From a virus, in IMG/VR virus record IMGVR_UViG_3300028027_000002, positions 1 to 64,000 of that record: a stretch of DNA of 64,000 bases; one strand, given 5' to 3'. The notes under the pieces were generated by a model. It saw only the letters and a program-made list of their open reading frames with translations. It had not been told where the DNA came from and did not search any database. Below are positions 4,875 to 31,482 of the stretch, piece by piece (within the stretch, counting starts at the first letter, position 1; the number at the start of each line of letters is the position of its first letter). The position numbers and the translations under genes were made by a program.

Positions 4875-4877
4875 AGC

Positions 4878-5426: not shown

Positions 5427-5446
5427 CTTAGTGGTAAAATAATAAT

Positions 5447-8796: not shown

Positions 8797-8798
8797 TC

Positions 8799-10289: not shown

Positions 10290-10310
10290 AAGCCGTGAGA
10301 TAATCTAATT

Positions 10311-12534: not shown

Positions 12535-14154
12535 ATGGCTGCTGAATATATTGATGGTCCTCTAGATGGCAATGGGCAATACCCAACCCTTATTCCTGGC
12601 TATGAAGATGCGGCCGATATACAAGAGGCTTTAAGACTTTACCATTATGGATCAACAACCATTCCTACAGATAATACCCTTGGAACAGCAAATGGTATAA
12701 ATACAAAGTCTATAGCAGGACACCTACAGTCCTTGTCAAACAGAATTTCAACAGAAGTAACTGATAGGACTAATGCTGACACAAACATTCAAAATCAAAT
12801 TAACAAAATGTCATCAGTCATTACAAAAGGTACAGATTTTACTTTACAGATTGAGGATATATCAAAAACAATTTTATTATCAACAGCAGGAAGCATAAGC
12901 CTAACAGTTCCCGTAAATTCATCTGTAGCAATTCCAGTAGGATCTAGATATATTTTAATTGAAATGGGCTCAGGAATAACAACTTTTACACCTGCAGTAG
13001 GAGTAACAATTAATAGCAAAAATTCACAACTATTTATTGATGAACAGTATGGCCAAGTAACTTTGTTAAAGGTTGCAGAAAATTCTTGGGTTGCTTATGG
13101 AGACATATATGAAGGAGGGCCAGCACCTACACCAGTTGCCCCAACACCTGTTGCTCCTACTCCAACCGCTCCGACACCTACAGCACCTACTCCAACGGCT
13201 CCTACTCCAACCGCTCCGACACCTACAGCACCTACACCAACAGCACCTACACCAACGGCTCCAACACCAACGGCTCCAACACCAACGGCTCCAACACCTG
13301 TTGTAGTTACTTGTGGAGACTGTGAGTCTTATACAACAACTTCTTCAACTTGTAATGGAGAAGATAGTTATGTAGGTATTTATACTGGAACTAGAAGAAC
13401 ATGTAGCGATGGATCTTATCAAATTTGTACAGAGCCAACCTTTACTTCATTTGGTGATTGTATTGCAGTTAATGTTGGTGCTTGCGGAGGTTCTGGTGGA
13501 GCGGGAACATCCTGTACAGCACCAACACCCACCGCTCCTACCCCTGTAGCATTGACATATTGCCCTTCACTTGGTTACAATGTTCCAACAAGTGGTTACC
13601 CAGGAAACTGTCCTGGAGCATCTCCTACACCAACTGCTCCTACACCAACTGCGCCAACACCAACTGCGCCAACACCAACTGCGCCAACACCAACAGCGCC
13701 TACACCAACTGAAGGTGGACCATATTGTAGAAATGAAGTAAGAATAGTTCCTCAGTCACAGTGTATAGCATATCAAGGAAACTTTACAGTTTGCTACTCT
13801 GACCCAGCGTATGTAAATCAAACATCTGCAACCTTTGAAAGTTGTGTTGGCAGCACTCCAACACCTGTAGCGCCTACACCAACCGCTCCAACACCAACAG
13901 CACCTACACCAACCGCTCCAACACCAACAGCACCTACACCAACCACATATACCTGTGCTGAACTTGGCGAACAAGGAACATGGCCTGATTGTTATCCAAT
14001 AGGAACACCAACACCAACACCAACAGCACCTACACCAACAGCACCTACACCAACGGCGCCAACACCTACAGAGCCTACACCAACTGCGCCAACACCTGTT
14101 TCACCAGACTTCTCTCCATTCTTCCCATCCTTTACAGTACCAGGGGCAGTATAA
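12535..14154 (+). CDS. Pro/Thr-repeat (PTAPT)n fibre-like protein with Cys-rich modules and C-terminal [12 protein letters not shown]
   Basis: Five PT-rich blocks; domain shared with the C-terminus of 21154..23262. Confidence 0.8.
13120..14100 (+). repeat. 15-bp coding tandem repeats (PTAPT) in five blocks
   Basis: Seen in DNA and protein; synonymous variation between units. Confidence 0.9.
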
Positions 14155-14180
14155 AGCGGGAGTTGGTGTATAATTAAAGT

Positions 14181-14426: not shown

Positions 14427-14427
14427 T

Positions 14428-15009: not shown

Positions 15010-15011
15010 TT

Positions 15012-18843: not shown

Positions 18844-20610
18844 ATGGCAACAAACAATAAAGACTTTAAAGTAAAGCATGGGTTAGTCGTTGAAGGACTA
18901 CAAGGTACTATCAACGGAGAAACAATCCTTACAGAAAACGCAGGAGATCAATACATCCTTGACCTCATTAGCGGAGAAACACTAGTCAAGTCAGTATCAA
19001 ATGAATTTGATGTTTCAGCAGGTGGAGAACTTTCACTTGATCGTACAGTAGTAGATGCTTACTATGATGCAGCAGGATCTGCAGGGGATGTAGCATCAGA
19101 TCTTACAGATCACGAAAATGCTACAGCAGCACACGGTGTAACAGGTGCGGTAGTTGGAACAACTAATACACAGACACTAACTAACAAGACAATTTCTTAT
19201 GCAGACAACACAATCACAGTTCAGGTTGCAAATGTTTCAGATCTAACAGCATCTGCAGCAGAACTTAATACTCTTGATGGAATTACTGCAAGCACATCAG
19301 AACTTAACCTTCTTGATGGCGTAACAGCAACAACAGCAGAATTAAACATTCTTGATGGTGTGACTGCTACTGCAGTAGAGTTAAACATTCTTGATGGAGC
19401 GACTGTTTCAACAGCAGAACTCAATCTTCTTGATGGAGTAACTGCAACAACTGCTGAATTGAACTATGTGGACGGAGTAACATCTGGCATTCAGGGTCAA
19501 CTTGACGATAAGGCACCACTTGCATCACCAGCACTTACTGGTGTACCAACTGCCCCAACAGCAACAGCAGGAACAAACACTACACAGGTAGCAACAACAG
19601 CATTCGTAGGAACAGCAGTAGCAAACCTTGTTAATGGTGCTCCAGACCTTCTTAATACTCTAGATGAGTTGGCTTTGGCACTTCAGGACAATCCAGATAT
19701 TATTGGAGATCTTCAGGATATTGCAGCAGGAAAGCAAGATACGCTAACTGCAGGAGCAAATATTGACATTACAGGAGCAACAATTTCTGTAACTGGTCTA
19801 GATGCAGCAGATATTTCAGATTTCTCATCTGCAGCACTTGCAGCAACTGCAGCAGCATACGATGTTGCAGGAGCAGCAGCGCAGGCTCTTGAAGATGCAG
19901 AAGCATACGCAGATGGACTTACAACATCTGACATTGCAGAAGGCACAAACCTTTACTTCACAAACCAGCGAGCAATTGCCGCTGTTGGTGGAACAATTGA
20001 AGATCAGATTAATCTTCTTGATACAGATGACATTGAAGAGGGTGCAATAAACCTTTACTTCTCAGACTCTCGTGCAAAGGATTCAGCAGGAGATCTTCTT
20101 GCAGGAGCAACAAAGGAAAACATTCAAATCAGTTACATTGGTGGAGTTCTAAGCATCTCTGCAGAAAACGGTGTAGCAGACTCTGACACTGATGACCTTG
20201 ATGAAGGTACAACAAATAAGTACTTCACAGATGTTCGTGCAGTAGATGCTCTTGAAGCAGTCGTTCCAAACTTTACAGCAGTTGAGGTTAATTCGGTTGC
20301 TAAGCAAGTTGCTTCGACTATGTCAGCAGCAAGCGCAGGCACACATGTTGGACACGCATTTGCTAAGGCAGATTACCGTTCAGCAGAGTTCCTTGTAAAG
20401 GTTGCATACGGTGCAAACACTGAAATTTCAAAGGTCCTTTTGACACTTGACTCTTCAGACAACATTTCAATTACTGAATACGCAATGGTTGGAACTAATA
20501 CTTCTACATCAACAATTTCAGCAAATGTTAATGGAGCAAATGTACAACTTCTAGTAACAACCGCTAACAATACCTCAGAGGTAACTGTTGTCGGAACATT
20601 ACTTAAGTAA
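18844..20610 (+). CDS. Tail fibre protein
   Basis: 6x 13-aa TAELNxLDGV repeats, APLASPALTGVPTAPT, LNTLDELA, EGTNLYFT repeats. Confidence 0.75.
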   Translation: MATNNKDFKVKHGLVVEGLQGTINGETILTENAGDQYILDLISGETLVKSVSNEFDVSAGGELSLDRTVVDAYYDAAGSAGDVASDLTDHENATAAHGVTGAVVGTTNTQTLTNKTISYADNTITVQVANVSDLTASAAELNTLDGITASTSELNLLDGVTATTAELNILDGVTATAVELNILDGATVSTAELNLLDGVTATTAELNYVDGVTSGIQGQLDDKAPLASPALTGVPTAPTATAGTNTTQVATTAFVGTAVANLVNGAPDLLNTLDELALALQDNPDIIGDLQDIAAGKQDTLTAGANIDITGATISVTGLDAADISDFSSAALAATAAAYDVAGAAAQALEDAEAYADGLTTSDIAEGTNLYFTNQRAIAAVGGTIEDQINLLDTDDIEEGAINLYFSDSRAKDSAGDLLAGATKENIQISYIGGVLSISAENGVADSDTDDLDEGTTNKYFTDVRAVDALEAVVPNFTAVEVNSVAKQVASTMSAASAGTHVGHAFAKADYRSAEFLVKVAYGANTEISKVLLTLDSSDNISITEYAMVGTNTSTSTISANVNGANVQLLVTTANNTSEVTVVGTLLK

Positions 20611-20645
20611 TAAAAAATAAAAATAGTTGGAAGAAGGAGTAGTAA

Positions 20646-21095
20646 ATGGCAACAGTCGATAAAGACTTCAAGGTCAAGAATGGATTAGTCGTAGCAAACG
20701 GCGGTACATTCGGAGATGCAGTAACAGTAGGAGCACCAACTCTTGCTAACCATGCAACAACCAAGGAGTATGTCGATAGTCGCTCAATGGCCGTAGGCTC
20801 TACTGCTCCTTCTTCACCAACTAACGGAACACAGTGGTTAGACACTATAACAAATAGAGTCAACTTCTATTATGAAGGTTCTTGGTATACCCAAGCAACT
20901 ATTGATGATACGAACAACTTACCACAGCACATTCACGATACCGCAATTGATGGAACTGGTTTCATAGTATCTCAGTTCTATGAAGGTGGATCATTCAACA
21001 GCCCATTGGGTGTAGGTTTGGATGCTGGAGGACCAGGTACAGAAACTTGGACTGTAGTATTCGATGGCGGTAGTGTAGTAGATAACTTCAATTAA
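20646..21095 (+). CDS. Tail-fibre-associated protein
   Basis: KDFKVKNGL N-terminus shared with 18844; HATTKEYVD. Confidence 0.65.
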   Translation: MATVDKDFKVKNGLVVANGGTFGDAVTVGAPTLANHATTKEYVDSRSMAVGSTAPSSPTNGTQWLDTITNRVNFYYEGSWYTQATIDDTNNLPQHIHDTAIDGTGFIVSQFYEGGSFNSPLGVGLDAGGPGTETWTVVFDGGSVVDNFN

Positions 21096-21153
21096 AAACT
21101 GATGTTATAATAAGATAAGTTAATGGGCAGCCCCCATAAGGAGAAATAAAAAT

Positions 21154-23262
21154 ATGGCAACAAGAATGCAACAGCGCAGAGGAACTGCAGCACAATGGAC
21201 GGCTGCAAACCCAGTTTTAGCAGCAGGTGAAATCGGATTTGAAACCGACACAAACAAATTTAAGATTGGTAATGGAGCAACCGCATGGTCGGCACTTGAT
21301 TACTTTGCTAACTCATCAGCACTAACAGCGCTCCTTAATGGAGCACCTGGCACACTAGATACTCTTAATGAACTAGCAGCAGCAATTAACGATGATCCAA
21401 ACTTCTTCTCAAGCGTTGCAGACCAGATTGCAGATGCAATCGCTGGCGCTGAAGTAGATCAGGCAGCCCTTGCTGGCGCAGGAATCGACTGGAATGCTGG
21501 AACTAACGCATTTGATATAGATTCAACAGTTGCCACAAAGACATATGCAGATAACGCTGTAACTGTCCACAACCAGGATTCAACTGGTGTTCATGGAATT
21601 ACTGACACAGCAGCCCTTGTAACATTGTCAGGTACACAGCAATTAGCAAACAAGACATTGATGAGCCCACTTATCAATACTCCTTCAGGCTTAACAAAAA
21701 CAGATGTTGGCCTTGCAAACGTAGATAACACTTCAGATGCCAGCAAGCCAGTCTCAAGCGCCGCACAGACAGCCCTTGACTTAAAGGCACCAATTGCTGA
21801 CCCAACATTTACTGGTACAGTATCTGGCATTACAAAGGCTATGGTAGGACTTGGACAGGTAGATAACATCTCAGATTTAAATAAGCCAATTTCAACTCTT
21901 GCACAGGCAGCACTTGATGCAAAGGCTCCACTAGCAAACCCTGAATTTACAGGTGTTGTATATGGTATTACAAAGGCAATGGTTGGATTAGATCAGGCAA
22001 ACAATACAGCAGATCTAGACAAGCCAGTATCAAATGCTACACAGGTAGCACTAGATAACAAACTTGCACTATCTGGAGGAACTCTTGTTGGATATTTGAC
22101 AACACACGCAAATCCAACAGACTCTATGCATGTAGCAAATAAGAGATATGTAGATGCTATTGCAGAAGGACTTCACATTCACGCAGCAGTTGTCGCAGCA
22201 ACAACTGCAAATGTCACACTTGCCTCAGCAGTAGATAATGGTAAGACACTTGATGGTGTTACATTGGCAACTGGAAATCGTATTTTAGTTAAGAACCAAA
22301 CAACTGAATCAGAAAATGGTATTTACATCGTAAGTGCTTCTGGTGCACCAACTAGAGCAGCCGACTTTAACTCTGCAGCAGAAATTCATGGTGGAGACTT
22401 TGTTTTCGTAACAGGTGGAACTCAGTACAATAACACTGGCTGGGTACAAACAGAAACTGTAACAACAGTTGGTACAGATGCTATAGGATTCACACAGTTC
22501 TCAGGCGCAGGAACATACTTAGCAGGAAATGGTTTGTCTCTAACTGGATCAACATTCTCTGCTGATCTAACAGTTCTTGCACCAAAGGACAGTCCAGCAT
22601 TTACAGGAACAGTTACAGGTGTTACAAAGGCAATGGTTGGATTACAGAATGCTGACAATACATCTGATGCAGCAAAGCCAGTTTCAACTGCTACTCAGAC
22701 AGCACTTGACCTAAAGGCTAACCTAAATGCACCAACATTTACTGGCACTGTTGCTGGTATTTCAAAGAGCATGGTTGGCTTGGGCAATGTTGATAACACA
22801 ACAGATGCAGGAAAGCCAGTTTCAACTGCTACTCAAACAGCACTTGATCTAAAGGCCCCAATTGCAAACCCAACATTTACTGGAACAGTAACAGTCGGTG
22901 CACCTGGAGTAGCATTTTCAGACGGAACACAGACAAAGGAAGGCGTTCCATCTAGAACAACAATTATACAAAGAACAGACTCTTACACACTGGCTTCACT
23001 GACAGAAAGAGATTCTTTGATAGAAATAAATAAGGCAACAGCATCAACCTTGACTATTCCAACTAATGCAACAGTTGCATGGCCAATTGGAACATCAATT
23101 GATATCCTTCAGACTGGAGCAGGACAGGTTACAATTGCTGGCGCAGCAGGAGTAACTGTAAATGCAACACCAGGATTAAAACTACGCACACAGTGGTCAT
23201 CAGCCTCGCTTTTGAAGCGAGGAACTGATTCATGGGTAGTCGTAGGCGATCTAACAGCATAA
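21154..23262 (+). CDS. Tail fibre with Mtd/hyaluronidase-type N-terminal domain
   Basis: QQRRGTAAQW..NPVLAAGEIGFETDT; 5x VGLxNVDNTSDxxKPVS repeats. Confidence 0.8.
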   Translation: MATRMQQRRGTAAQWTAANPVLAAGEIGFETDTNKFKIGNGATAWSALDYFANSSALTALLNGAPGTLDTLNELAAAINDDPNFFSSVADQIADAIAGAEVDQAALAGAGIDWNAGTNAFDIDSTVATKTYADNAVTVHNQDSTGVHGITDTAALVTLSGTQQLANKTLMSPLINTPSGLTKTDVGLANVDNTSDASKPVSSAAQTALDLKAPIADPTFTGTVSGITKAMVGLGQVDNISDLNKPISTLAQAALDAKAPLANPEFTGVVYGITKAMVGLDQANNTADLDKPVSNATQVALDNKLALSGGTLVGYLTTHANPTDSMHVANKRYVDAIAEGLHIHAAVVAATTANVTLASAVDNGKTLDGVTLATGNRILVKNQTTESENGIYIVSASGAPTRAADFNSAAEIHGGDFVFVTGGTQYNNTGWVQTETVTTVGTDAIGFTQFSGAGTYLAGNGLSLTGSTFSADLTVLAPKDSPAFTGTVTGVTKAMVGLQNADNTSDAAKPVSTATQTALDLKANLNAPTFTGTVAGISKSMVGLGNVDNTTDAGKPVSTATQTALDLKAPIANPTFTGTVTVGAPGVAFSDGTQTKEGVPSRTTIIQRTDSYTLASLTERDSLIEINKATASTLTIPTNATVAWPIGTSIDILQTGAGQVTIAGAAGVTVNATPGLKLRTQWSSASLLKRGTDSWVVVGDLTA

Positions 23263-23292: not shown

Positions 23293-24150
23293 ATGGCAAA
23301 GAAAGAATTAGGATCGAAGTCTTTACAACAAAACGACTTCCTAGAACCAAAGGCACCAGTTAGCGTTGTAGCGACAGATGTTGGAACAAATAGAGCGTTC
23401 TCAAGCGCAGCAGCATCTGTTTCATTTTCTTTGCCAGGAGACTCTCCAGCAGCGACATCATATACAGTAACTTCTTCACCAGGAGGGTTTACTGGTACAG
23501 GCTCAGGATCACCTATAACAGTTGCAGGATTGAGTCCTGCCACATCTTATACATTTACAGTAACAGCAACTAATGCTTCAGGAACTTCTCCTGCATCAGC
23601 AGCATCATCTGCAGTAACAGTAACAACTGTTCCAAACTCTGTCTCTGTTACAGCAACAACAGGTGTTAACCAAGATACAATTTCCTGGCTCGCACCAGCA
23701 ACGGGTGGAAAGGCAATCATTGATTACTCTTGGGTATCTTCTGATGGAAAGTCTGGAACAACAGCATCAACATCCGTTAATGTTGTACAAGAAGGAAGCA
23801 CCGCTCAGACATATACAGTAACAGTAAGAAATGCAAATGGTTCTTCTCTTGTATCTGCACCATCAAACAGCGTTACTACTACACCACCATTCTTCCCACC
23901 ATCATTCCCATTCTTCCCACCAGCATTTTGTCCGTTCTTCCCGAACTTCTGTCCGTTCTTCCCGAACTTCTGTCCAACGTTCTGTCCGTTCTTCCCGAAC
24001 TTCTGTCCATCATTCTGTCCGTTCTTCCCGAACTTCTGTCCAGCATTTTGTCCAGCATTTTGTCCAGCATTCTGTCCAGCATTCTGTCCAGCATTCTGTC
24101 CATCATTCGCTCCATTCTTCCCATCCTTTACGGTACCAGGAGCAGTATAA
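23293..24150 (+). CDS. Fibronectin type III protein with C-terminal Pro/Phe/Cys repeat tail ending [12 protein letters not shown]
   Basis: GLSPATSYTFTVTATNASG (FN3) and a second FN3-like repeat; 12x FCP. Confidence 0.85.
   Translation: MAKKELGSKSLQQNDFLEPKAPVSVVATDVGTNRAFSSAAASVSFSLPGDSPAATSYTVTSSPGGFTGTGSGSPITVAGLSPATSYTFTVTATNASGTSPASAASSAVTVTTVPNSVSVTATTGVNQDTISWLAPATGGKAIIDYSWVSSDGKSGTTASTSVNVVQEGSTAQTYTVTVRNANGSSLVSAPSNSVTTTPPFFPPSFPFFPPAFCPFFPNFCPFFPNFCPTFCPFFPNFCPSFCPFFPNFCPAFCPAFCPAFCPAFCPAFCPSFAPFFPSFTVPGAV
23884..24147 (+). repeat. Coding repeats PFFPNFC / PAFC (21- and 12-bp units)
   Basis: Seen directly in DNA and protein. Confidence 0.9.
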
Positions 24151-24207
24151 TAAAATAATAAATAGGGTATACCACGCTTATTAACTAGGTGTGGTATACT
24201 TTATTTT

Positions 24208-24903
24208 ATGGAAAAAAGATATGAGTGGTATGACGCTCCAAGACTAGAAAATACAAAAACTAGGCTTGAAAAGCGTACAATTGCAAACGATGTTGAAGTT
24301 TTAAACCTAGAGTATGGAATCAATCTATATAGAAATGCTATACCTAAAGATCAATGCTTAAGCATAATAAATAGACTTGAAGATGCTTCAGAAAAAAACT
24401 CACCCCATCTTTCTTGGAGGGGCGCACAGATTAATGACAAAGAGGATTCTGACCATGTTAGAAATTGCCTAGATATTAAATACAAAAGAGAACATCTTGG
24501 AAAATTCTTACCATTTGATCAGGACATGTTTGATATACATAAAGAAGTAGAAGATTATTTGGATAATTGTTTAAGAGATTACGAATCCTTATGGCACTTT
24601 CAAATGGCATACAAAGAAGCATTTAACTTCGTAAAGTATCTGCCTGGAAAATATTTTAAACTTCATGGCGACCACGGACCATACTATACGTGTACAGTCT
24701 CTGCCGTTATTTATTTAAACGATGACTATACTGGAGGAGAAATAGAGTTTCCAAGACAAGGCCTTAAAATAAAGCCAGAAGCAGGAGACATTGTTGTTTT
24801 TCCATCAAACTTTGTTTACGAGCATGCATCTTGTGAAATTTTTGAGGGAACAAAATATTCAGTAGTAATAATGACAGATTACAACGACTTACACCACAAG
24901 TAA
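24208..24903 (+). CDS. 2OG-Fe(II) oxygenase, prolyl-4-hydroxylase-like
   Basis: HGD...YLNDDYTGGEIEF...H...GTKYS. Confidence 0.9.
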   Translation: MEKRYEWYDAPRLENTKTRLEKRTIANDVEVLNLEYGINLYRNAIPKDQCLSIINRLEDASEKNSPHLSWRGAQINDKEDSDHVRNCLDIKYKREHLGKFLPFDQDMFDIHKEVEDYLDNCLRDYESLWHFQMAYKEAFNFVKYLPGKYFKLHGDHGPYYTCTVSAVIYLNDDYTGGEIEFPRQGLKIKPEAGDIVVFPSNFVYEHASCEIFEGTKYSVVIMTDYNDLHHK

Positions 24904-24940
24904 AAATAGTGATAGAATATATATAGAAAGAAGGTAAAAA

Positions 24941-25639
24941 ATGGATAAGGTAATTAATACAAGTTCTGATGAAACAAAAGACTATGAAACACCAACGTGG
25001 TCTTCATTTGAAAATTTGGGAAGTGGAATTTTTGTTTACAGAGATGTTCTTCCAAAAGAACTAGATATAATCAAAAGGCTTGAAGACAATCTTAGCGACG
25101 ACCATCCTAGATATAAGTGGACGGAAGCATTTGTTGGATATTTTCAGAGCATGCCAGAGTACAGAGACTGTGTTGATTTTAAGTTTAAGAAATCAGATAT
25201 CGCACTAGACACAAGTGAGACATCCCTAAATCTTCAAGCATTATGGCAAGACTGCTACGACAGACAAAAAGCAGCGGTAAACCATTATCAGAAAATGTTT
25301 AATCTTGGAGAACTAAGATATTGGGAGGCAATGAACTTTGTTAAGTACAATAAGGGTCAGCATTTCCAATACCACCATGATCACGGATTTTCTTACAACT
25401 GTACAGTATCTTTAGTTGCTTATCCTAATGATGACTATACTGGAGGAGAGTTGTCCTTTCAGCATCAAGGATTAATGATAACTCCGAAGGCTGGAGATCT
25501 ATATATTTTCCCATCAACATATATGTACAGCCACAGAGCAATGCCAGTTCATTCTGGAACAAAATACTCTATTGTCACAATGCTAGACTATAGCGCTAAG
25601 TTTCATACACCAGAAATGTATAGAGAAACTGGCGACTAG
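24941..25639 (+). CDS. 2OG-Fe(II) oxygenase, prolyl-4-hydroxylase-like
   Basis: HHD...YPNDDYTGGEL...H...GTKYS. Confidence 0.9.
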   Translation: MDKVINTSSDETKDYETPTWSSFENLGSGIFVYRDVLPKELDIIKRLEDNLSDDHPRYKWTEAFVGYFQSMPEYRDCVDFKFKKSDIALDTSETSLNLQALWQDCYDRQKAAVNHYQKMFNLGELRYWEAMNFVKYNKGQHFQYHHDHGFSYNCTVSLVAYPNDDYTGGELSFQHQGLMITPKAGDLYIFPSTYMYSHRAMPVHSGTKYSIVTMLDYSAKFHTPEMYRETGD

Positions 25640-25640
25640 T

Positions 25641-26348
25641 TTGAAGATTGACGTTTATAGAAAAAGAGATTTTGATTCAGATTTCTATCCTTTGCCACCA
25701 AAAAGAGACTGGATGGATGACACATTTGATAAACACGCATATAGATGCTTTCCAGTAAATATTGCAAATACATTAGGGTGGACATTCTCTTTTCCAAAAG
25801 ACATATCTTTTATTTGGGACGGAAACTCAACATCAGAAGATGGACACGTAAAGGTTCTTTCTGGAGAAGAATATGTCTTTACTAACAGGGCAAATGCAAC
25901 AATAAGTTTTAACAGTGGTTTAACTTTTATGACAGAGGAAAATGTTAGTTTACTTATGATGCCTGTTCCAAATCAGTTTATTGATGGTGTTCAGGGTTTT
26001 ACAACAATGATAAGTACTTCTGTACTAACAACTCCAATTCCATATGCTTGGAAAATAACAAAGGCTAATGAAGTAATAACTATTCCAGCAAATACGCCTA
26101 TTGTTTCAATAATTCCAATAAGTTTAACAGATGTCCAAAACACTGAAGTTCACCTTTATGTAGAAAATTTTCCATATGAGCATTTTAAAAAAATCTCTGA
26201 TTATGCAAATGCTTCTCATGAAATATCTAAAAAACAATCCTGGACAAACTTCTATAGGGATGCAGTAGACCATGAAGGAAATCAACAGGGTAACCATGAA
26301 CTAAAGAGTTTAAAGTTAAAGATTACAGATCATAGAGATAGCAATTAG
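25641..26348 (+). CDS. DUF6065-like protein
   Basis: RDWMD...HAYRCFP..IAN..GW signature. Confidence 0.65.
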   Translation: MKIDVYRKRDFDSDFYPLPPKRDWMDDTFDKHAYRCFPVNIANTLGWTFSFPKDISFIWDGNSTSEDGHVKVLSGEEYVFTNRANATISFNSGLTFMTEENVSLLMMPVPNQFIDGVQGFTTMISTSVLTTPIPYAWKITKANEVITIPANTPIVSIIPISLTDVQNTEVHLYVENFPYEHFKKISDYANASHEISKKQSWTNFYRDAVDHEGNQQGNHELKSLKLKITDHRDSN

Positions 26349-27079
26349 TGAATACAGAAAATATTAAGTTTATAGCAAATAAAACATGGCTATCAAAAGA
26401 AAGTAACTCTGCTCCAAAACCAATAATAAGAACAATTCCAGACTGGTTTAGAAAAGCAGACAGGTTTGCTAAAAGACCAGACGGAGAATTCTGGATAGGT
26501 CCAGATAAAGGTAAAGTTCCTACGTGGAAAGCGTGTCCTGCAATTTTTGACATTATGGGTACTGGATATTCGTTAAATCTGCCATGTGATATTGAGTTTT
26601 ATATGACTGAGTCTGGACTTAAGCACAAAGTTTTAAGCAATAAATATCAAGACTTTATACAGGTAAGAGATGAGATGCCACAGTTTGAGCATCCACGTGG
26701 ATATTACAAAAATCATTTCGCATTGACTCCAGACTGGCAAATAAAAACTCCTTCAGGATATAGTGTTTTGTATACTCAGCCATTTAATAGATTTGAATTA
26801 CCATTTTTACTAACTACGGGAATTGTAGATAACGATAAAGTCCACATGCCTGGATCTTTTCCATTTTTTATTGTTGAGGGATTTGAGGGTATTATTCCAG
26901 CAGGAACTCCATATGCACAGTTAATTCCATTTAAAAGAGAAAACTGGACATCTGAAATTATTGAGCAGGATGATGCCTCAGAGTTAATGAGACAGGCAAT
27001 GGACAATGCAAGTATTTATAGAAAGCCAGATGGTGGAATATATAAAAATGAAATATGGGAACAAAGAAAATATGAATAA
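26348..27079 (+). CDS. DUF6065-related / dUTPase-like-fold protein
   Basis: PDWF...KACPAIFD..GY; TGIVDND; IPAGTPYAQLIPFKRE. Confidence 0.55.
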   Translation: MNTENIKFIANKTWLSKESNSAPKPIIRTIPDWFRKADRFAKRPDGEFWIGPDKGKVPTWKACPAIFDIMGTGYSLNLPCDIEFYMTESGLKHKVLSNKYQDFIQVRDEMPQFEHPRGYYKNHFALTPDWQIKTPSGYSVLYTQPFNRFELPFLLTTGIVDNDKVHMPGSFPFFIVEGFEGIIPAGTPYAQLIPFKRENWTSEIIEQDDASELMRQAMDNASIYRKPDGGIYKNEIWEQRKYE

Positions 27080-27099
27080 AAAAATGGTACAATGTTAAT

Positions 27100-27774
27100 A
27101 TGGACAACGTAGAATATTCAAATAACTTCGTTACTGATAGAGTATCAATAACACCCTCTGGTTATTTTGGTAAAGATAAGTCAAACATCCAATCTAGAGA
27201 AAATTTTATTAGTAAAGAAGATTTAAAGTTTTTAGAAAATGCTGCAAAGAATATAAAAATTTGGGATGTCACAGAAACCCACTATGACGAGAATGGAACA
27301 ATGATTTATGATTCATCTTACTGGGCAGATCGTGTTGCTACATCAAGATCTCTAAACCTTAACGATGAAAAAATTAATCCAGTTATTGAAAAACTACAAC
27401 AAGCCCTTAAAAAAGAGGTAGATTTATTTTTTGGTGTCGATGCTTGGCCAACAAGCCCAGCAATAGTTAGATGGCTTCCAGGGCAGTTTCAACAACCACA
27501 TGCAGACAAAGAGTTGCATGAAGGAGAAAATGCAGGAAAGCCAAACGACTTCCCATATTATGATATCGCAGGATTGTTTTATTTGAACGACGATTATGAA
27601 GGTGGAGAGTTATATTTTCCAAATCAAAAAATACAGTTCAAGCCTAAATCAGGTGCAGCATATTTTTTCCCAGGGGACCTAAATTATATACATGGAGTAA
27701 CCCAGATCACAGAAGGCATAAGATATGTTGTTCCATTTTTCTTTACTATTTTGTCTCATAAGGAGGGCCAATAA
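27100..27774 (+). CDS. 2OG-Fe(II) oxygenase, prolyl-4-hydroxylase-like
   Basis: HAD...YLNDDYEGGELYF...HGV...GIRY. Confidence 0.9.
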   Translation: MDNVEYSNNFVTDRVSITPSGYFGKDKSNIQSRENFISKEDLKFLENAAKNIKIWDVTETHYDENGTMIYDSSYWADRVATSRSLNLNDEKINPVIEKLQQALKKEVDLFFGVDAWPTSPAIVRWLPGQFQQPHADKELHEGENAGKPNDFPYYDIAGLFYLNDDYEGGELYFPNQKIQFKPKSGAAYFFPGDLNYIHGVTQITEGIRYVVPFFFTILSHKEGQ

Positions 27775-28580
27775 TGCAAGAAGATATAGTTTTAAATTTT
27801 AACAAAATAGAAGATAAAATTTTTGTTTACAAAAATCCATTTAACGATTTAGAAAAAATAATTTCATCCCTTGATGATAGAAAGTGGGATCAGTGGTACA
27901 CCTTTGGAAATATTCATCACATACCCCTTCCTGGGAGTGTCGAGTCAGATTCTTTCCCAAGCACCGTTGATTGGGAATCTTACACCAACAAGATTCAGGA
28001 TAAGGACAAAGACCTAGACATCGTTAATGTTTTTTATAATACTACCAAGCACTACATTGAAGAAATCAACCTGACTTCAAATAACTGGATGCTTGGAAAA
28101 ATAGATATAGCAAAGTACCCAGATGCAAAAAATATAACTGATCCAAATGCAAAGCCATTTTTTAATGAAATTGGCAAAAATTACACAATGTCTTTTCACA
28201 CTGACTATCCACAAGAAAGTACAAACTCTCCAGGAGCAAAACAAATAGTTACCTGCAATATGTACCTAAATGATAATTATGAAGGAGGGGAGATAGAGTT
28301 TAAAGTCTTTTCAGAAGATGGCTCTTATGAGAGAATAACTTATAAGCCAGAGGCAGGAGATGTTGTTATATTTCCATCTACTCCACCCTATTGGCATGGA
28401 GTAAGAGAAACAACAAATGGAGATAAGTATTTTGTTAGATCATTTTGGTATGTAATTGATGGACCATCAGAAGAGTGGATTGAAAATGAAAAGAAGTATG
28501 GCAAAGAGGTTTGGCATGAGATGGAAGAAACAAGAAAACAAGAAGAAAGAATTTCTGGGTTGTACATAAGAAATGGTTAA
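27774..28580 (+). CDS. 2OG-Fe(II) oxygenase, prolyl-4-hydroxylase-like
   Basis: HTD...YLNDNYEGGEIEF...HGV...GDKY. Confidence 0.9.
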   Translation: MQEDIVLNFNKIEDKIFVYKNPFNDLEKIISSLDDRKWDQWYTFGNIHHIPLPGSVESDSFPSTVDWESYTNKIQDKDKDLDIVNVFYNTTKHYIEEINLTSNNWMLGKIDIAKYPDAKNITDPNAKPFFNEIGKNYTMSFHTDYPQESTNSPGAKQIVTCNMYLNDNYEGGEIEFKVFSEDGSYERITYKPEAGDVVIFPSTPPYWHGVRETTNGDKYFVRSFWYVIDGPSEEWIENEKKYGKEVWHEMEETRKQEERISGLYIRNG

Positions 28581-29352
28581 CAAGTCAAACTTTAATTATT
28601 TAAAAGATGAAAAAAATAACAAAGGAGTTTTGGGAATAACTCATAACCGTATTGTAGAAATTCCTAACTTCGTTGATGAAAAAACAGCAAGCAGTATGAT
28701 AGCCTATGTTGAGTCAAAAGGAGAAAACTGGGGAGACATAGCGTTTTATGGTTCACTAGGCATGGGTCTTGCTCCAAACGATCCAGGACTTGCTGAGCAT
28801 GGATTAAGTCTTACATTTTTTGATGATCTTAGAGATAAATTTAAGGAAGCCGTTGAGTTAGTTTTTGAAAGAAAGGTAAGACCTAATACCTCTCATGCCC
28901 AAAAATGGGATGTAGGTGGATATGCTTCACCACATTCGGACAACTCTGATTTTGATGGAAACCCTAATGCTTTTGAAATAAACAAGTATGTTGGAATTTT
29001 GTATTTAAACAACGACTATGAGGGTGGAGAGTTATTCTTTGTTGAGCCATCAGACAAGAAATCAGAAGGATCTGATATGTCTGGAAATGCAGTTCCAGTT
29101 TGGAAAGATCCATATCTTTCTTTTAAGCCAAATGCTTATTCTTATTATGTGTTTCCAGGAGGAGTAGAAAATATCCATGGAGTAACTGAAATACTTGCTG
29201 GAACAAGATACACAATGGTTTCTTTTTGGGACTACGAAGAAATAGAATATAGTCAAGAAACCATTGATAAATGGAAAGAAGAAGAAAAAGAAATTAGAAG
29301 ATTACAGTCTATTCAAAAAGAAGAGTGGACAAAAGGAAATAAATACGCATAG
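28573..29352 (+). CDS. 2OG-Fe(II) oxygenase, prolyl-4-hydroxylase-like
   Basis: HSD...YLNNDYEGGELFF...HGV...GTRY. Confidence 0.9.
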   Translation: MVNKSNFNYLKDEKNNKGVLGITHNRIVEIPNFVDEKTASSMIAYVESKGENWGDIAFYGSLGMGLAPNDPGLAEHGLSLTFFDDLRDKFKEAVELVFERKVRPNTSHAQKWDVGGYASPHSDNSDFDGNPNAFEINKYVGILYLNNDYEGGELFFVEPSDKKSEGSDMSGNAVPVWKDPYLSFKPNAYSYYVFPGGVENIHGVTEILAGTRYTMVSFWDYEEIEYSQETIDKWKEEEKEIRRLQSIQKEEWTKGNKYA

Positions 29353-29448: not shown

Positions 29449-31482
29449 ATGTCAGATTTTTTTAGTTTTAAACTTCCAGAGGACTTCGTAGAAAAGTACA
29501 AAGCACAAGAGAGCCCGTTTGGTTTTAAAGATGCAGCAGAAAACTCACTTGGAGAAATTACTTTTATTCGTACATACTCCCGCATGAAGGAAGATGGGAC
29601 TAAAGAACGCTGGCATGAAGTTTGTCGTCGAGTAATCGAGGGTATGTATTCAGTACAGAAGAATCATGCTAAAGAAAACCGTTTGCCTTGGAATGACTAC
29701 AAGGCTCAGAAGTCAGCACAAGAAGCATTCCAAAGAATGTTTGAATTAAAGTGGACACCTCCAGGTCGCGGTATGTGGGCATTTGGAACCCCTATGACTA
29801 TGGAGAAGAAGAACTCGGCAGCACTACAAAACTGTGCGATGGTATCTACAAAGGACCTTGATAAGAATGATCCAGGAGCATTGTTTGCTTGGGTTATGGA
29901 TGCATTGATGCTTGGCATTGGTGTAGGGTTTGATACAGTGGGACAGGATAAGAATTTTTCAATCTATACCCCAACAGAACCAGAACAGGTGTTCGAAATC
30001 CCAGACACTCGTGAAGGCTGGGTAGAGTCTGTAAGACTTCTAATCAACTCCTATCTCAGAGCCAACCAGAGTATTCAGAAGTTTAACTACGACTTGATCA
30101 GACCTCTTGGAGCACCCATTAAGGGCTTTGGAGGCGTTGCTTCAGGGCCTGCACCTCTTATCAAGTTGCACGACCAGATAGACCGTGTAATCGGCTCCAG
30201 AGGCGGAGAAACACTAGATTCTCGTGCTATCGTAGACCTGGTAAACCTTATTGGTACCTGTGTAGTGTCTGGCAATGTTCGCAGATCAGCAACCCTTGCT
30301 TTGGGTACTGCAGGAGATGATACATTCATGAATCTAAAGAATTCAGAGATTTTCCCAGAACGTAACTCATTTGATCCAGAAAATCCAGGATGGGCTTGGA
30401 TGTCTAATAATTCTATTTCAGCAGAGGTAGGAACAAAGTACGAAGACTATGTAGATTTAATTACAGAAAACGGAGAACCAGGTTTTATCTGGCTTGATGT
30501 TGCTCGTAATTATGGACGACTAAAGGATGCGCCAGACGGTAAGGATTATCGTGTGATGGGATTTAACCCATGTGCGGAGCAGCCATTGGAATCATACGAA
30601 CTATGTACACTTGTAGAAGTGCACTTGAATCGTCATGAATCTAAGGAGGACTTCCTGCGTACCCTGAAGTTTGCATACCTTTATGGAAAGACTGTAACAC
30701 TTGTTCCAACACACTGGCCACAAACAAACGGTATCATGCAACGCAACCGTCGTATTGGTACATCACTTACTGGCATTGCATCATTTGCAGATCAAAAAGG
30801 CTTGCCAACCGTTCGTGAATGGATGGATGAAGGATACAACAAGATCCGTCACTATGATCACCAGTATTCTGAATGGCTATGTGTTCGTGAATCAATTCGT
30901 GTAACTACAGTTAAGCCATCAGGATCAGTTTCAATTCTTTCTGGTGCAACTCCTGGAGTTCACTGGGGACCTGGAGGAAACTTCTTCCTTCGTGCAGTTA
31001 GATTTGGAAATACAGATCCAATGATACACCTATTCAAAGCAGCGGGGTACACAATTGAAGATGACGTAGTATCAGCAAACACATCAGTAGTTTACTTCCC
31101 AATCAAGTCAGGTCATCCACGATCTGAAAAGGATGTAACATTGTTTGAAAAGATTGCTCTTGCTGCAACTGCTCAAAAGTATTGGTCCGATAATGGTGTT
31201 TCCGTAACGCTATCCTTTGATAAGGAAACAGAATCAAAGCATGTTGTTCCAGCACTTCATATGTACGAGGGACAACTAAAGGCAGTCTCATTCCTACCAA
31301 TGGGAAATACTGTTTATCCACAACAGCCATACACTCAGATCACTGAAGAAGAATATGAGTCATATATTGGTAAGTTGAAGCATATTGATTTTGCTGCAAT
31401 TTATGATGGAGCAGAAAACCTTGAGGCACAGGGCGAAATGTACTGCACCACAGATTATTGTGAAATTAAAATAAACAAGTAG
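29449..31482 (+). CDS. nrdJ: Class II (adenosylcobalamin-dependent) ribonucleotide reductase, monomeric RTPR type
   Basis: PPGRG, LQNC, NVRRSA, FNPCAEQ, TTVKPSG, C-terminal CTTDYC. Confidence 0.92.
   Translation: MSDFFSFKLPEDFVEKYKAQESPFGFKDAAENSLGEITFIRTYSRMKEDGTKERWHEVCRRVIEGMYSVQKNHAKENRLPWNDYKAQKSAQEAFQRMFELKWTPPGRGMWAFGTPMTMEKKNSAALQNCAMVSTKDLDKNDPGALFAWVMDALMLGIGVGFDTVGQDKNFSIYTPTEPEQVFEIPDTREGWVESVRLLINSYLRANQSIQKFNYDLIRPLGAPIKGFGGVASGPAPLIKLHDQIDRVIGSRGGETLDSRAIVDLVNLIGTCVVSGNVRRSATLALGTAGDDTFMNLKNSEIFPERNSFDPENPGWAWMSNNSISAEVGTKYEDYVDLITENGEPGFIWLDVARNYGRLKDAPDGKDYRVMGFNPCAEQPLESYELCTLVEVHLNRHESKEDFLRTLKFAYLYGKTVTLVPTHWPQTNGIMQRNRRIGTSLTGIASFADQKGLPTVREWMDEGYNKIRHYDHQYSEWLCVRESIRVTTVKPSGSVSILSGATPGVHWGPGGNFFLRAVRFGNTDPMIHLFKAAGYTIEDDVVSANTSVVYFPIKSGHPRSEKDVTLFEKIALAATAQKYWSDNGVSVTLSFDKETESKHVVPALHMYEGQLKAVSFLPMGNTVYPQQPYTQITEEEYESYIGKLKHIDFAAIYDGAENLEAQGEMYCTTDYCEIKINK

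What the first reader, a model, noticed from the sequence alone, without database searches (positions are those of the whole stretch)
23293..29352. Cassette B: FN3 protein with a 12x FCP repeat tail followed by five oxygenases and two DUF6065-like genes
Seen: an approximately 88-aa tail made mostly of Pro, Phe and Cys (PFFPNFC x4, PxFC x8), then seven consecutive putative enzymes. Five have intact HxD...H...R/K motifs but are mutually divergent. The layout of repetitive core, conserved follower and tailoring enzymes mirrors RiPP clusters, but the core is fused to a virion-type FN3 protein. Inference: site-specific hydroxylation or cross-linking of Pro/Phe/Asn/Cys to make an adhesive, metal-binding or cross-linked fibre tip. 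Such oxygenases are usually labelled auxiliary metabolic genes.
Basis: partly seen in the sequence, partly recalled or inferred. Interest (0 to 1): 0.85.

Follow-up and report, generated by a model that had tools for sequence, protein, structure and literature searches.

The report
Phage repeat tail with matched hydroxylases
A freshwater phage gene for a surface-type protein ends in a greasy proline/phenylalanine/cysteine repeat and is followed by five prolyl-hydroxylase-like enzymes plus two proteins of unknown function, and across dozens of related phages this enzyme set always travels with this kind of repeat, which suggests (but does not prove) that the enzymes chemically modify the repeat.

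Summary
ORF 23293-24150 encodes a 285-aa FN3 protein. Its last 88 residues are 29 Phe, 26 Pro and 12 Cys (PFFPNFC x4 plus PxFC x8). Seven tightly packed genes follow: five PF13640 2OG/Fe(II) oxygenases with intact HxD...H...K/R, and two DUF6065 paralogs.

New here:
- The oxygenases are prolyl-hydroxylase-like by profile and by fold.
- DUF6065 has a dUTPase-like fold. It occurs fused to such an oxygenase in three metagenomic contigs.
- The FN3 gene belongs to a family of more than 3,600 proteins with hypervariable aromatic repeat tails, many ending in a Hint/intein-like domain.
- In 64 non-duplicate related loci, Pro-rich PFF-type tails are always followed by the same oxygenase/DUF6065 core (49 of 49). 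Pro-poor tails never are (0 of 15). The two traits switch together 5 times on the FN3 tree.

Best reading (about 45%): a late-expressed module that hydroxylates prolines of this tail, and perhaps of other Pro-rich virion proteins. The precedent is the PBCV-1 prolyl 4-hydroxylase, not RiPPs.

Main rival (about 30%): an accessory-gene island inherited as a block with the adjacent tail.

There is no biochemical evidence. The scan had already noted the shared C-terminal tag in this genome.

The parts
23293..24150 (+). FN3 protein (285 aa): conserved N-terminal peptide, two FN3/Ig-like domains, then the repeat tail
   Evidence: ORF; PF00041 E 2.7e-8. More than 3,600 homologs with a conserved N-terminal ~195 aa and hypervariable tails. 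dN/dS 0.23 against L002.
23884..24147 (+). 88-aa Pro/Phe/Cys repeat tail (PFFPxF, PFFPNFC x4, PxFC x8)
   Evidence: Composition F29 P26 C12; 12 P.FC matches; tandem DNA repeats with periods of 12, 21 and 33 nt. Metagenome contigs break inside it.
24112..24150 (+). C-terminal tag [12 protein letters not shown] plus stop, shared with the protein that ends at 14154
   Evidence: Six-frame motif search. DNA alignment shows a block of about 41 nt that is nearly identical, with unrelated flanks. Paired ends of the same kind occur in L005, L017 and L021.
24208..24903 (+). Prolyl-hydroxylase-like 2OG/Fe(II) oxygenase, orthogroup A, copy 1
   Evidence: PF13640 E 7e-12. Model pLDDT 83. Top Foldseek hits are PHD2, Chlamydomonas P4H, B. 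anthracis P4H and PBCV-1 vCPH. dN/dS 0.04.
24941..25639 (+). Prolyl-hydroxylase-like oxygenase, orthogroup A, copy 2 (40% identical to copy 1)
   Evidence: PF13640 E 1.7e-13; alignment A2; orthogroups; dN/dS 0.04.
25641..26348 (+). DUF6065 protein (paralog lineage 'fam2'), dUTPase-like fold plus a C-terminal helix
   Evidence: PF19541 E 3e-31. Model pLDDT 88. VIA-align Z 9.9 to dUTPases; the top 22 rows are all dUTPase, dCTP deaminase or dUTPase-related viral proteins. dN/dS 0.05.
26348..27079 (+). DUF6065-like paralog (lineage 'fam1')
   Evidence: phrog_7084 E 1e-37. hhalign fam1 against fam2 gives 93.6%. Its start overlaps the stop of the previous gene. dN/dS 0.03.
27100..27774 (+). Prolyl-hydroxylase-like oxygenase, orthogroup B (part of the conserved core A-A-2-1-B)
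   Evidence: PF13640 E 7e-9; orthogroup and synteny.
27774..28580 (+). Prolyl-hydroxylase-like oxygenase, orthogroup E (variable part of the cassette)
   Evidence: PF13640 E 1.4e-13.
28573..29352 (+). Prolyl-hydroxylase-like oxygenase, orthogroup G (variable part), with a 20-aa insert in the barrel
   Evidence: PF13640 E 2e-6; alignment.
12535..14154 (+). Related part outside the given range: 539-aa protein with a fibre-tip-like N-terminal domain, APTPT repeats, Cys islands and the same C-terminal tag
   Evidence: Translation. phrog_8780 / phrog_18179 match to residues 39-191. Tag.
29449..31482 (+). Class II ribonucleotide reductase; marks the downstream end of the island and is not part of the module
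   Evidence: PF17975 E 9e-32; phrog_367 E 7e-142.

Best explanation
Cassette B is a structural-protein modification module of a 112-kb freshwater phage. It sits inside the structural gene block, with fibre-like genes upstream and baseplate-like, portal, protease and capsid genes downstream.

The first gene encodes a protein with a conserved N-terminal peptide, two FN3/Ig-like domains and an 88-residue tail that is very hydrophobic and rich in Pro, Phe and Cys. The seven following genes are read in the same direction, with overlapping or nearly abutting ends.

Inferred mechanism: in the host cytoplasm, late in infection, the five prolyl-hydroxylase-like 2OG/Fe(II) oxygenases convert prolines of the tail to hydroxyproline. 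Each paralog would handle its own sequence context (C-P-F, F-P-N, C-P-A, P-P). Other Pro-rich virion proteins may also be substrates: the APTPT protein that carries the same C-terminal tag, and the collagen-like protein at 10311-11039.

The two DUF6065 proteins would act as non-catalytic partners of the oxygenases, for substrate binding or as a scaffold. Hydroxylation would make a Phe/Pro segment that tends to aggregate more soluble and would stiffen it as a polyproline-II-type rod. The 12 cysteines could then oxidise to disulfides after lysis.

Shown: the gene content, the catalytic motifs, the prolyl-hydroxylase-like fold, the DUF6065 fold and its fusion to an oxygenase, and the co-inheritance of tail type and enzyme set.

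Inferred: that the tail is the substrate, that Pro is the residue modified, that the protein is in the virion, and the physical consequence.
For: 1. Enzyme class.
- A profile of six of the genome's oxygenases matches B. anthracis prolyl 4-hydroxylase over nearly its full length (E 1.8e-13). Further matches are P3H1, algal P4H, PHD2 and PBCV-1 P4H.
- The model of oxygenase A finds only protein prolyl hydroxylases at the top (PHD2-HIF peptide, E 1e-10; Chlamydomonas P4H with (Ser-Pro)5; BaP4H; PBCV-1 vCPH), apart from one small-molecule enzyme, PolD, at rank 14.
- HxD...H...K/R is intact in all five.

2. Coupling to the tail.
- In 64 non-duplicate related loci, PFF/PYF-type tails are followed by orthogroup A and/or B oxygenases in 49 of 49 cases. 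Pro-poor tails (FSFVPFG-type, YNF-type) are followed by them in 0 of 15.
- Both traits change 5 times on the FN3-domain tree. All 3 well-supported independent pairs go the same way.
- The number of oxygenases rises with the number of tail prolines (Spearman 0.78, n=43).
- The shortest PYFPP tails (36 aa) have the minimal set of one oxygenase and one DUF6065.
- In a separate DNA-pattern sample, 46 of 49 FN3-PFF genes have both gene types within 4 kb.

3. DUF6065 partnership.
- DUF6065 genes are interleaved with the oxygenases in a fixed order (A-1-A-2-B or A-A-2-1-B).
- DUF6065 is fused to a complete oxygenase core in P0220 and two further sequences, on three contigs.

4. Link to virion genes. 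In an unrelated phage lineage, DUF6065 genes sit between tail-fibre-like genes, together with an oxygenase and a glycosyltransferase.

5. Functional genes. dN/dS is 0.03-0.11 for all seven enzymes.

6. Expression context. No + strand terminator-like site lies between the FN3 gene and the cluster, and the genes overlap.

7. Precedent. PBCV-1 encodes a prolyl 4-hydroxylase (PDB 5c5t). From my own knowledge (Eriksson et al. 1999, not read here), it hydroxylates Pro-rich repeats found in the virus's own proteins.
Against: - There is no biochemical, proteomic or transcript evidence.
- The tail and the cassette are physically adjacent. Block exchange by recombination would give the same co-switching without any functional link. 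Only 5 switches were inferred, and the sign test cannot reach significance.
- The island also holds a ribonucleotide reductase, so this position accepts non-structural cargo.
- Five further oxygenases lie elsewhere in this genome. A complete genome with a Pro-poor tail still has four.
- PFF repeats also occur at the ends of other large proteins with no oxygenase next to them.
- In the L081-L089 lineage, DUF6065 and an oxygenase occur without PFF tails.
- Bacterial P4H/PHD homologs are known to act on EF-Tu (PDB 4iw3, 5v7y), so host targets are plausible.
- Virion location of the FN3 protein is inferred from gene position only. It has no PHROG hit and no match in GenBank phages.
Confidence: 0.45

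Rival explanations
1. The seven genes are an accessory (auxiliary or host-takeover) island at a recombination hot spot between the fibre genes and the baseplate/head genes. The oxygenases would act on host proteins (for example EF-Tu or ribosomal proteins, as bacterial P4H/PHD homologs do) or on small molecules. The link with the tail would then reflect only physical adjacency and inheritance as a block.
For: [quoted passage not shown] Such oxygenases are widespread in aquatic phages, with no known substrate (PMC12774648).
- An RNR gene lies in the same island.
- The island varies from 2 to about 13 genes between relatives.
- Oxygenases occur at four or five other places in this genome.
- Structural neighbours include the EF-Tu-modifying PPHD and BaP4H.
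Against: - Tail type and oxygenase orthogroups associate perfectly, with no recombinant among 64 loci, in an otherwise mosaic region.
- The number of oxygenases scales with the proline content of the tail.
- DUF6065/oxygenase genes are embedded among fibre genes in a second lineage.
- The cluster has no terminator before it and sits within the structural gene block.
Confidence: 0.3
2. The oxygenases and DUF6065 proteins do serve virion proteins, but the target is not this tail. They would modify or help assemble the fibre proteins encoded upstream (18844-23262), the collagen-like protein, or the APTPT protein. The FN3 tail would be an unmodified sticky or anchoring segment.
For: - In L081-L089, DUF6065 genes directly follow tail-fibre-like genes that have no PFF tail.
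- The window encodes a collagen-like protein (PF01391, E 1.5e-7) and an APTPT-repeat protein. These are classical kinds of P4H substrate.
Against: This does not explain why the A/B orthogroups track the tail type of the FN3 gene in 64 of 64 loci. It also does not explain why minimal loci pair one oxygenase and one DUF6065 with the shortest Pro-rich tails.
Confidence: 0.12
3. The cluster modifies nucleotides or DNA. DUF6065 would be a dUTPase/dCTP-deaminase-type nucleotide-binding protein, and the oxygenases would act like TET/JBP or AlkB enzymes, next to the ribonucleotide reductase.
For: - dUTPase-like fold of DUF6065 (Z 9.9).
- Adjacent class II RNR.
- A weak Tet_JBP hit for the first oxygenase (E 9e-4, below threshold).
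Against: - Profile and fold matches to prolyl hydroxylases are far stronger (E 1.8e-13) than to Tet-like enzymes (E 0.011-0.016).
- DUF6065 is only 7-17% identical to dUTPases, and its invariant residues (W24, C36, G46, T152, P159, Y205) do not recall dUTPase motifs (my own knowledge; not formally tested).
- RNR is absent from many islands that keep the cassette.
- In L083 the DUF6065 genes lie among fibre genes.
Confidence: 0.05
4. A true RiPP-like pathway: the tail is cut off and released as a modified peptide product.
For: A repetitive 'core', a conserved C-terminal 'follower' tag and adjacent tailoring enzymes. Relatives carry a self-cleaving Hint/intein-like domain after the repeat.
Against: - No peptidase, RRE, cyclase or exporter domain was found among the seven genes.
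- The repeat is fused to conserved folded domains in more than 3,600 homologs.
- In relatives, the Hint domain would cut after the repeat, not before it, leaving the repeat on the FN3 protein.
Confidence: 0.03

Closest known systems
PBCV-1 (chlorella virus) prolyl 4-hydroxylase A085R / vCPH and its Pro-rich viral repeat substrates (PDB 5c5t; Eriksson et al. 1999, from my own knowledge)
   Same: A virus-encoded small monomeric-type P4H of the PF13640 class, in a virus whose own proteins carry Pro-rich tandem repeats. It is a structural neighbour of oxygenase A (E 3.8e-9) and a profile match (E 2.2e-5).
   Different: - Here there are five divergent paralogs in a row (ten in the genome), interleaved with two DUF6065 proteins.
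- The host is a bacterium.
- The candidate substrate is an aromatic/Pro/Cys repeat (PFFPNFC, PAFC), not PAPK-type.
- The enzyme set co-varies with the repeat type. Activity is untested.
Bacillus anthracis P4H (PDB 3itq, 5hv0, 5iax) and Pseudomonas PPHD (4iw3)
   Same: The best sequence-profile match (E 1.8e-13 over profile positions 17-211 of 226), with the same metal and 2OG ligands. BaP4H accepts collagen-like peptides.
   Different: These are single-copy cellular genes, and their reported physiological substrate includes EF-Tu (titles of 5v7y and 4iw3). They have no DUF6065 partner and no adjacent repeat protein.
phrog_61 '2OG-Fe(II) oxygenase' genes of aquatic phages, usually labelled auxiliary metabolic genes (PMC12774648 notes their likeness to the human prolyl hydroxylase EGLN3)
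   Same: All five genes match phrog_61 (E 3e-33 to 3e-14).
   Different: No substrate has been proposed for that family in the literature I could search. Here a specific candidate substrate and a partner protein emerge from synteny.
Plant hydroxyproline-rich glycoproteins (extensins, arabinogalactan proteins) with P4Hs and glycosyltransferases
   Same: Pro-rich tandem repeats (AP/TP/SP-type in the 12535-14154 protein) lie next to oxygenase-like, nucleotidyl-transferase (PF12804) and possible glycosyltransferase genes. An algal P4H is a close structural neighbour (3gze).
   Different: This is an analogy only. There is no secretory pathway, the PFF/PxFC tail has no plant counterpart, and glycosylation is not shown.
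RiPP biosynthetic gene clusters
   Same: The layout: a repetitive peptide, a conserved flanking tag and a run of tailoring-type enzymes.
   Different: The peptide is the C-terminus of a large folded protein. No leader, protease, RRE or transporter was found. Relatives put a Hint domain after the repeat.
Bacterial intein-like (BIL/Hint) domains in variable surface proteins (PDB 2lwy)
   Same: Many homologs of the FN3 protein carry a C-terminal Hint-like domain directly after the repeat (profile hit to 2lwy, E 8e-6; PF14890, E 1.5e-6, below the cut-off).
   Different: The window's own protein has no Hint domain. It ends 12 residues after the repeat.

Membership tests
2OG/Fe(II) oxygenase superfamily (PF13640 2OG-FeII_Oxy_3) | Pfam HMM match above the gathering score | tested here: met
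   All five genes score 29.1-52 bits against a cut-off of 27.
2OG/Fe(II) oxygenase superfamily (PF13640 2OG-FeII_Oxy_3) | HxD...H iron triad and a basic residue (K/R) that binds the 2OG C5 carboxylate | tested here: met
   H153, D155 and H206 are invariant. K or R lies in G(T/I/D)(K/R)Y ten residues after the distal His in all six aligned oxygenases.
2OG/Fe(II) oxygenase superfamily (PF13640 2OG-FeII_Oxy_3) | Double-stranded beta-helix fold | tested here: met
   AlphaFold2 model of oxygenase A: pLDDT 83, pTM 0.85. At least 500 PDB matches at E<=1e-3, led by DSBH prolyl hydroxylases.
Protein prolyl hydroxylases (P4H / PHD / P3H group) | Closest relatives by sequence profile and by structure are prolyl hydroxylases | tested here: met
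   BaP4H E 1.8e-13; P3H1 1.3e-9; algal P4H 1.6e-6; PHD2 about 1e-5. The top-50 Foldseek list is almost entirely prolyl hydroxylases.
Protein prolyl hydroxylases (P4H / PHD / P3H group) | Catalyses hydroxylation of peptidyl-proline | not testable with these tools
DUF6065 (PF19541) | Pfam HMM match above the gathering score | tested here: met
   25641-26348 scores 109 bits against a cut-off of 26.6. The second gene, 26348-27079, has no Pfam hit but matches phrog_7084 at E 1e-37, and its lineage aligns to the first at 93.6% hhalign probability.
dUTPase / dCTP deaminase superfamily | Shared beta-barrel (dUTPase-like) fold | tested here: met
   VIA-align Z 9.9-8.2 for 12 dUTPase-type chains. The top 22 rows are all from this superfamily or its viral derivatives. 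Foldseek is weaker (E 3e-3).
dUTPase / dCTP deaminase superfamily | The five conserved dUTPase catalytic motifs | tested here: inconclusive
   Identity to dUTPases is 7-17%. The invariant DUF6065 residues do not resemble dUTPase motifs as I recall them, but no motif-by-motif structural superposition was made.
RiPP biosynthetic cluster | A short precursor with leader or follower, plus a recognition (RRE), protease or cyclase component | tested here: not met
   The precursor would be a 285-aa two-domain protein. No such domains were found in the seven genes with Pfam, PHROGs or NCBIfam.
Fibronectin type III / Ig-like phage surface domains | FN3 HMM match | tested here: met
   PF00041 at 34.4 bits against a cut-off of 25. 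The profile of homologs matches titin and fibronectin FN3 domains.
Fibronectin type III / Ig-like phage surface domains | The protein is present in the virion | not testable with these tools
   Only gene position supports this: fibre-like genes upstream; baseplate-like, portal, protease and capsid genes downstream.
Hint / bacterial intein-like domain | A C-terminal Hint domain with an N-terminal Cys/Ser and a terminal HN | tested here: not met
   Absent from the window's protein, which stops after the tag. Present in many homologs, which end ...GGYLVHNK (2lwy E 8e-6).

The most novel reading that the evidence does not exclude
A large family of freshwater phages carries a modular 'tail chemistry' system. 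A conserved FN3 surface protein bears a hypervariable aromatic repeat tail, and each tail type comes with its own matched set of modifying proteins:
- Pro-rich PFF tails come with P4H-like oxygenases plus a new dUTPase-fold partner, DUF6065.
- Pro-poor FG/YN tails come with a different unknown family that may also be oxygenase-like.

The tail is further capped by interchangeable ends (a short tag shared by several virion proteins, a Cys-rich knob, or a self-cleaving Hint domain). This would be a post-translationally hydroxylated, possibly cross-linkable, adhesive or structural material on phage particles. It would also give a first substrate class for the very common 'orphan' 2OG oxygenases of aquatic phages.
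Probability: 0.3. Interest if true: 0.8.

Novelty: new variant of a known kind. Interest (0 to 1): 0.62.

Why it matters
2OG/Fe(II) oxygenases of the phrog_61 type are among the commonest 'auxiliary' genes of aquatic phages. A recent survey found them to be the phage proteins that most often resemble a human protein, the prolyl hydroxylase EGLN3 (PMC12774648). No substrate is known for them. This locus and its many relatives offer a concrete, testable candidate: the phage's own Pro/aromatic repeat tails.

The locus also gives DUF6065 a fold and a partner, through its fusion to an oxygenase. That family has about 4,000 clusters at 50% identity and no literature that I could find.

If the reading is confirmed, hydroxyproline would join glycosylation as a chemical modification of tailed-phage particles. 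The hypervariable tail, with its matched enzymes, Hint ends and Cys knobs, would become a model for how phages diversify surface chemistry.

Tried and rejected
- megablast of the whole cassette and tblastn of the FN3 protein against 50,697 GenBank phage records: no match. No cultured relative could be used.
Bacterial contexts of DUF6065 therefore remain unexamined.
- No RNA holder was listed for the stretch. The contigs laid were DNA only. They showed that the cassette occurs at roughly 98.5% identity in lake-water metagenomes of 2024 and that assemblies break in the repeat.
- The gene after the 'cassette A' protein (14428-15009) matches phrog_2954, but hhalign against the oxygenase profile gave nothing (0.8%). 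I do not call it an oxygenase.
- fam3 is the family that replaces the cassette next to Pro-poor tails. The protein-atlas feature search points to PF13759 2OG-FeII_Oxy_5 clusters (16 of 30 hits, score 0.96). Pfam scans of 20 members, a PDB profile search and a PF13759 genome search gave no support. It is kept as a lead only.
- NCBIfam gave only sub-threshold PKHD-type hits.
- The promoter scan was at chance level (40 found, 38.5 expected).
- The RiPP reading and the nucleotide-modification reading were considered and ranked low (see rivals).

Full report
**What is there**

The window is the first 64 kb of a 111,870-bp virus record with direct terminal repeats, rated 100% complete. Earlier notes of this scan call it a freshwater actinobacterial phage; I did not test the host.

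ORF 23293-24150 (+) encodes 285 aa. It matches PF00041 fn3 (E 2.7e-8). Relatives show a second Ig/PKD-like domain.

Residues 198-285 form the tail: 29 Phe, 26 Pro, 12 Cys, 8 Ala, 4 Ser, 4 Asn. They are arranged as PFFPxF units, four PFFPNFC and eight further PxFC. The DNA beneath is a tandem array with periods of 12, 21 and 33 nt. The protein ends [12 protein letters not shown], followed by two stop codons.

Seven genes follow on the same strand, with gaps of 0-57 nt or overlaps:
- PF13640 oxygenases at 24208, 24941, 27100, 27774 and 28573.
- DUF6065 at 25641 (PF19541, E 3e-31).
- A paralog at 26348 (phrog_7084, E 1e-37).

A class II ribonucleotide reductase (29449-31482) closes the island. 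Upstream lie three fibre-like genes, one with an Mtd_N domain. Downstream lie a 1,346-aa baseplate-like protein, portal, protease and capsid genes. No + strand terminator-like site separates the FN3 gene from the cluster.

**The enzymes**

The five oxygenases are 24-40% identical to the first. All keep the HxD...H triad and a K/R ten residues after the distal His.

A profile of six of the genome's ten oxygenases matches B. anthracis prolyl 4-hydroxylase over almost its whole length (E 1.8e-13). Weaker matches are P3H1, PKHD/PiuC hydroxylases, Chlamydomonas P4H, PHD2 and the PBCV-1 enzyme. Tet-like enzymes appear only at E about 0.01.

An AlphaFold2 model of the first oxygenase (pLDDT 83, pTM 0.85) finds protein prolyl hydroxylases at nearly every top rank. 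These include PHD2 with HIF peptide (E 1e-10), algal P4H with a (Ser-Pro)5 peptide, BaP4H, PBCV-1 vCPH and the EF-Tu-modifying PPHD.

All seven genes are under strong purifying selection against the relative L002 (dN/dS 0.03-0.11). The FN3 gene evolves faster (0.23).

**DUF6065**

No paper in the searchable library mentions it.

A model built on 38 homologs (pLDDT 88) has a dUTPase-like barrel (residues 1-176) plus a long C-terminal helix. VIA-align gives Z 9.9-8.2 to a dozen dUTPases. The 22 best rows are all dUTPases, dCTP deaminases or herpesvirus dUTPase-derived proteins. Foldseek agrees weakly. Identity is only 7-17%, and I saw no dUTPase motifs. This is a shared fold, not a shown function.

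A profile search finds 4,019 clusters at 50% identity, mostly viral by the atlas labels. Some members are tandem DUF6065-DUF6065 fusions of 443-500 aa.

One cluster (P0220 and two further sequences, on three contigs) fuses DUF6065 to a complete PF13640 core with HxD, His and Arg. Together with the fixed interleaving of the two gene types (below), this makes a physical partnership of DUF6065 with the oxygenases likely.

**The FN3-tail family**

The FN3 protein has more than 3,600 homologs. The first ~195 residues, including an N-terminal peptide with invariant positions, are conserved. Everything after them is hypervariable. The tails fall into these kinds:
- Pro-rich PFFPPFF/PYFPP repeats of 36 to over 170 residues.
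- Cys-bearing versions like the window's.
- Pro-poor FSFVPFGFTPFG-type repeats.
- A YNFYNF type without proline.

The ends also vary:
- Short tags.
- Cys-rich knobs, such as ...CPECTKGCPC.
- In many members, a ~150-200-aa domain that begins with Cys/Ser directly after the repeat and ends ...GGYLVHNK. Its profile matches a bacterial intein-like domain (2lwy, E 8e-6) and an archaeal intein. PF14890 appears below its threshold in one member.

The window's protein has no such domain.

**Test of the proposed link**

I fetched 80 related viral loci and sorted the genes between the FN3 gene and the baseplate-like gene into families and orthogroups.

- Pro-rich tails are followed by a conserved core, written A-A-2-1-B or A-1-A-2-B. 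A and B are oxygenase orthogroups; 1 and 2 are the two DUF6065 lineages. A variable run of further oxygenases follows (C to G).
- The window reads A A 2 1 B E G, then RNR.
- The shortest Pro-rich tails (36 aa) have only A and 1.
- Pro-poor tails are followed by one to three genes of an unrelated 216-aa family (fam3) and by 0-2 oxygenases of other orthogroups.

Among 64 non-duplicate loci, A/B oxygenases are present in 49 of 49 with PFF/PYF tails and in 0 of 15 without. On a tree of the FN3 domains each trait changes five times. The three well-supported independent pairs all agree, which is too few for a significant sign test.

The oxygenase count correlates with the number of tail prolines (Spearman 0.78, n=43, not corrected for phylogeny).

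A separate sample was drawn by a back-translated PFFPPFFPFF DNA pattern. Of 49 non-identical FN3-PFF genes with at least 4 kb downstream, 46 had an oxygenase and a DUF6065 gene within 4 kb.

It is met in the loose sense that related genes occur elsewhere:
- Five more PF13640 genes lie in this genome.
- Four lie in a complete genome with a Pro-poor tail.
- In another lineage (L081-L089), three DUF6065 genes, one oxygenase and a glycosyltransferase are interleaved with tail-fibre-like genes that have no PFF tail.

That last context still points to virion fibres rather than to host metabolism.

**Caveats**

The tail is the 3' end of the gene next to the cassette. A recombination event that swaps one is likely to swap the other. 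The sister pair L051/L071 shows exactly such a swap, with a breakpoint at the junction between FN3 domain and tail.

The absence of any recombinant in 64 loci of a very mosaic region suggests selection for the pair, but it does not prove it. The island also accepts an RNR gene. PFF repeats also end other large proteins with no oxygenase beside them; those genomes may carry the cassette elsewhere.

**How it most likely works**

See Best explanation. In short, the enzymes hydroxylate prolines in the tail while it is still in the cytoplasm. None of the eight proteins has an obvious signal peptide by eye. DUF6065 acts as partner.

The closest precedent is the chlorella-virus prolyl 4-hydroxylase, whose substrates are Pro-rich repeats of viral proteins (my own knowledge; the structure is PDB 5c5t). 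The RiPP comparison fails on its defining features.

A rival of nearly equal weight is an accessory island that is merely linked to the tail. Smaller rivals are other virion targets, nucleotide modification and a released peptide.

**The shared tag**

The same 12 residues end the 539-aa protein at 12535-14154. This protein has a fibre-tip-like N-terminal domain, long APTPT repeats and Cys islands. It is followed by an unassigned gene, another unassigned gene and a nucleotidyl-transferase.

In three other phages (L005, L017, L021) a second ORF likewise shares its last 10-25 residues with that phage's FN3 protein, although the ends differ between phages. So the ends evolve in concert within a genome. 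That fits a common docking site or a common recognition element. The scan had already flagged the tag in this genome (e1-5970516).

**Verdict**

I rate it a new variant of a known kind: a viral prolyl-hydroxylase system with viral Pro-rich substrates, now in phages, multiplied, with a new partner family and a hypervariable aromatic tail. All functional claims remain inference from sequence, predicted folds and synteny.

Noticed in passing
Homologs P0008, P0014, P0028, P0030, P0036, P0043, P0048, P0051, P0058, P0062 and others; loci L019, L025, L032, L035, L049, L060, L077: Many homologs of the FN3 protein carry a C-terminal Hint / bacterial-intein-like domain. It starts with Cys or Ser right after the aromatic repeat and ends ...GGYLVHNK (2lwy E 8e-6; PF14890 E 1.5e-6, below the cut-off). 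Self-cleavage there would leave the repeat as the new C-terminus, possibly as a reactive thioester.
   Followed up: partly
window 14116-14154 and 24112-24150; L005 7923-8729 / 8765-9610; L017 2-607 / 8816-9772; L021 755-1774 / 10001-10888: Within one phage, two different proteins share the same last 10-25 residues, while these ends differ completely between phages ([12 protein letters not shown]; ...FSFYWFSR; a Cys-rich ...CCGGNCGC knob; ...GCPPRC). The C-terminal ends evolve in concert.
   Followed up: partly
L005 9655-10308; L014 10722-12050; L035 2864-3526; L049 11964-12524 and 14666-15978; L055 11292-12583: An unannotated ~216-aa family (fam3) takes the place of the oxygenase/DUF6065 core next to Pro-poor (FG- or YN-type) tails. 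Its conserved motifs are WHDH..G.P.FHGYY, GHPH and RITIAYD. The protein-atlas feature search places it near PF13759 2OG-FeII_Oxy_5 clusters, but no HMM or PDB search supports that.
   Followed up: partly
P0220, P0311, P0312 (375 aa); P0165, P0169, P0184, P0189, P0198, P0250, P0252 (443-500 aa): Natural fusions exist: DUF6065 joined to a complete PF13640 oxygenase core (three sequences on three contigs), and tandem DUF6065-DUF6065 proteins.
   Followed up: partly
L081-L089, e.g. L083 3862-16272: In a different phage lineage, three DUF6065-like genes are interleaved with tail-fibre-like genes (588, 617 and 466 aa). They are followed by one oxygenase and a glycosyltransferase-like gene. No PFF tails are present.
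   Followed up: partly
window 12535-16460: 'Cassette A': a 539-aa protein with a fibre-tip-like domain and about 40 APTPT units interrupted by Cys-containing islands. One island (..[21 protein letters not shown]..) recurs in the tails of the FN3 homologs P0012 and P0025. It is followed by a phrog_2954 protein, an unassigned 259-aa protein and a MobA-like nucleotidyl-transferase. This looks like a separate modification set, possibly for glycosylation.
   Followed up: partly
L046 3393-4139; P0035; window 23831-24184 and 23928-24158 (alternative frames): Some relatives read the repeat in another frame (..LSVLPTELLSVLP.., ..HHTSRISH..). These match the alternative open frames across the window's repeat. 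They may be sequencing errors or real frameshift variants of the tail.
   Followed up: no
window 4020-6043: A sixth oxygenase (4878-5426, PF13640) is flanked by two paralogous genes of about 200 aa (4020-4664 and 5447-6043) that share an N-terminal ..LERSG(S/N)TF.. motif and have no Pfam hit.
   Followed up: no
window 10311-11039: A collagen-like protein (PF01391, E 1.5e-7; about 13 G-X-Y triplets) is encoded among the structural genes. It is another classical type of prolyl-hydroxylase substrate.
   Followed up: no
window 23976-24073: Public metagenome assemblies (subsurface 2017-2019, lake water 2024) hold the cassette, but their contigs break inside the tail repeat. One loose end joins the tag to the 'cassette A' copy. 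The repeat and the duplicated tag are assembly hazards.
   Followed up: partly
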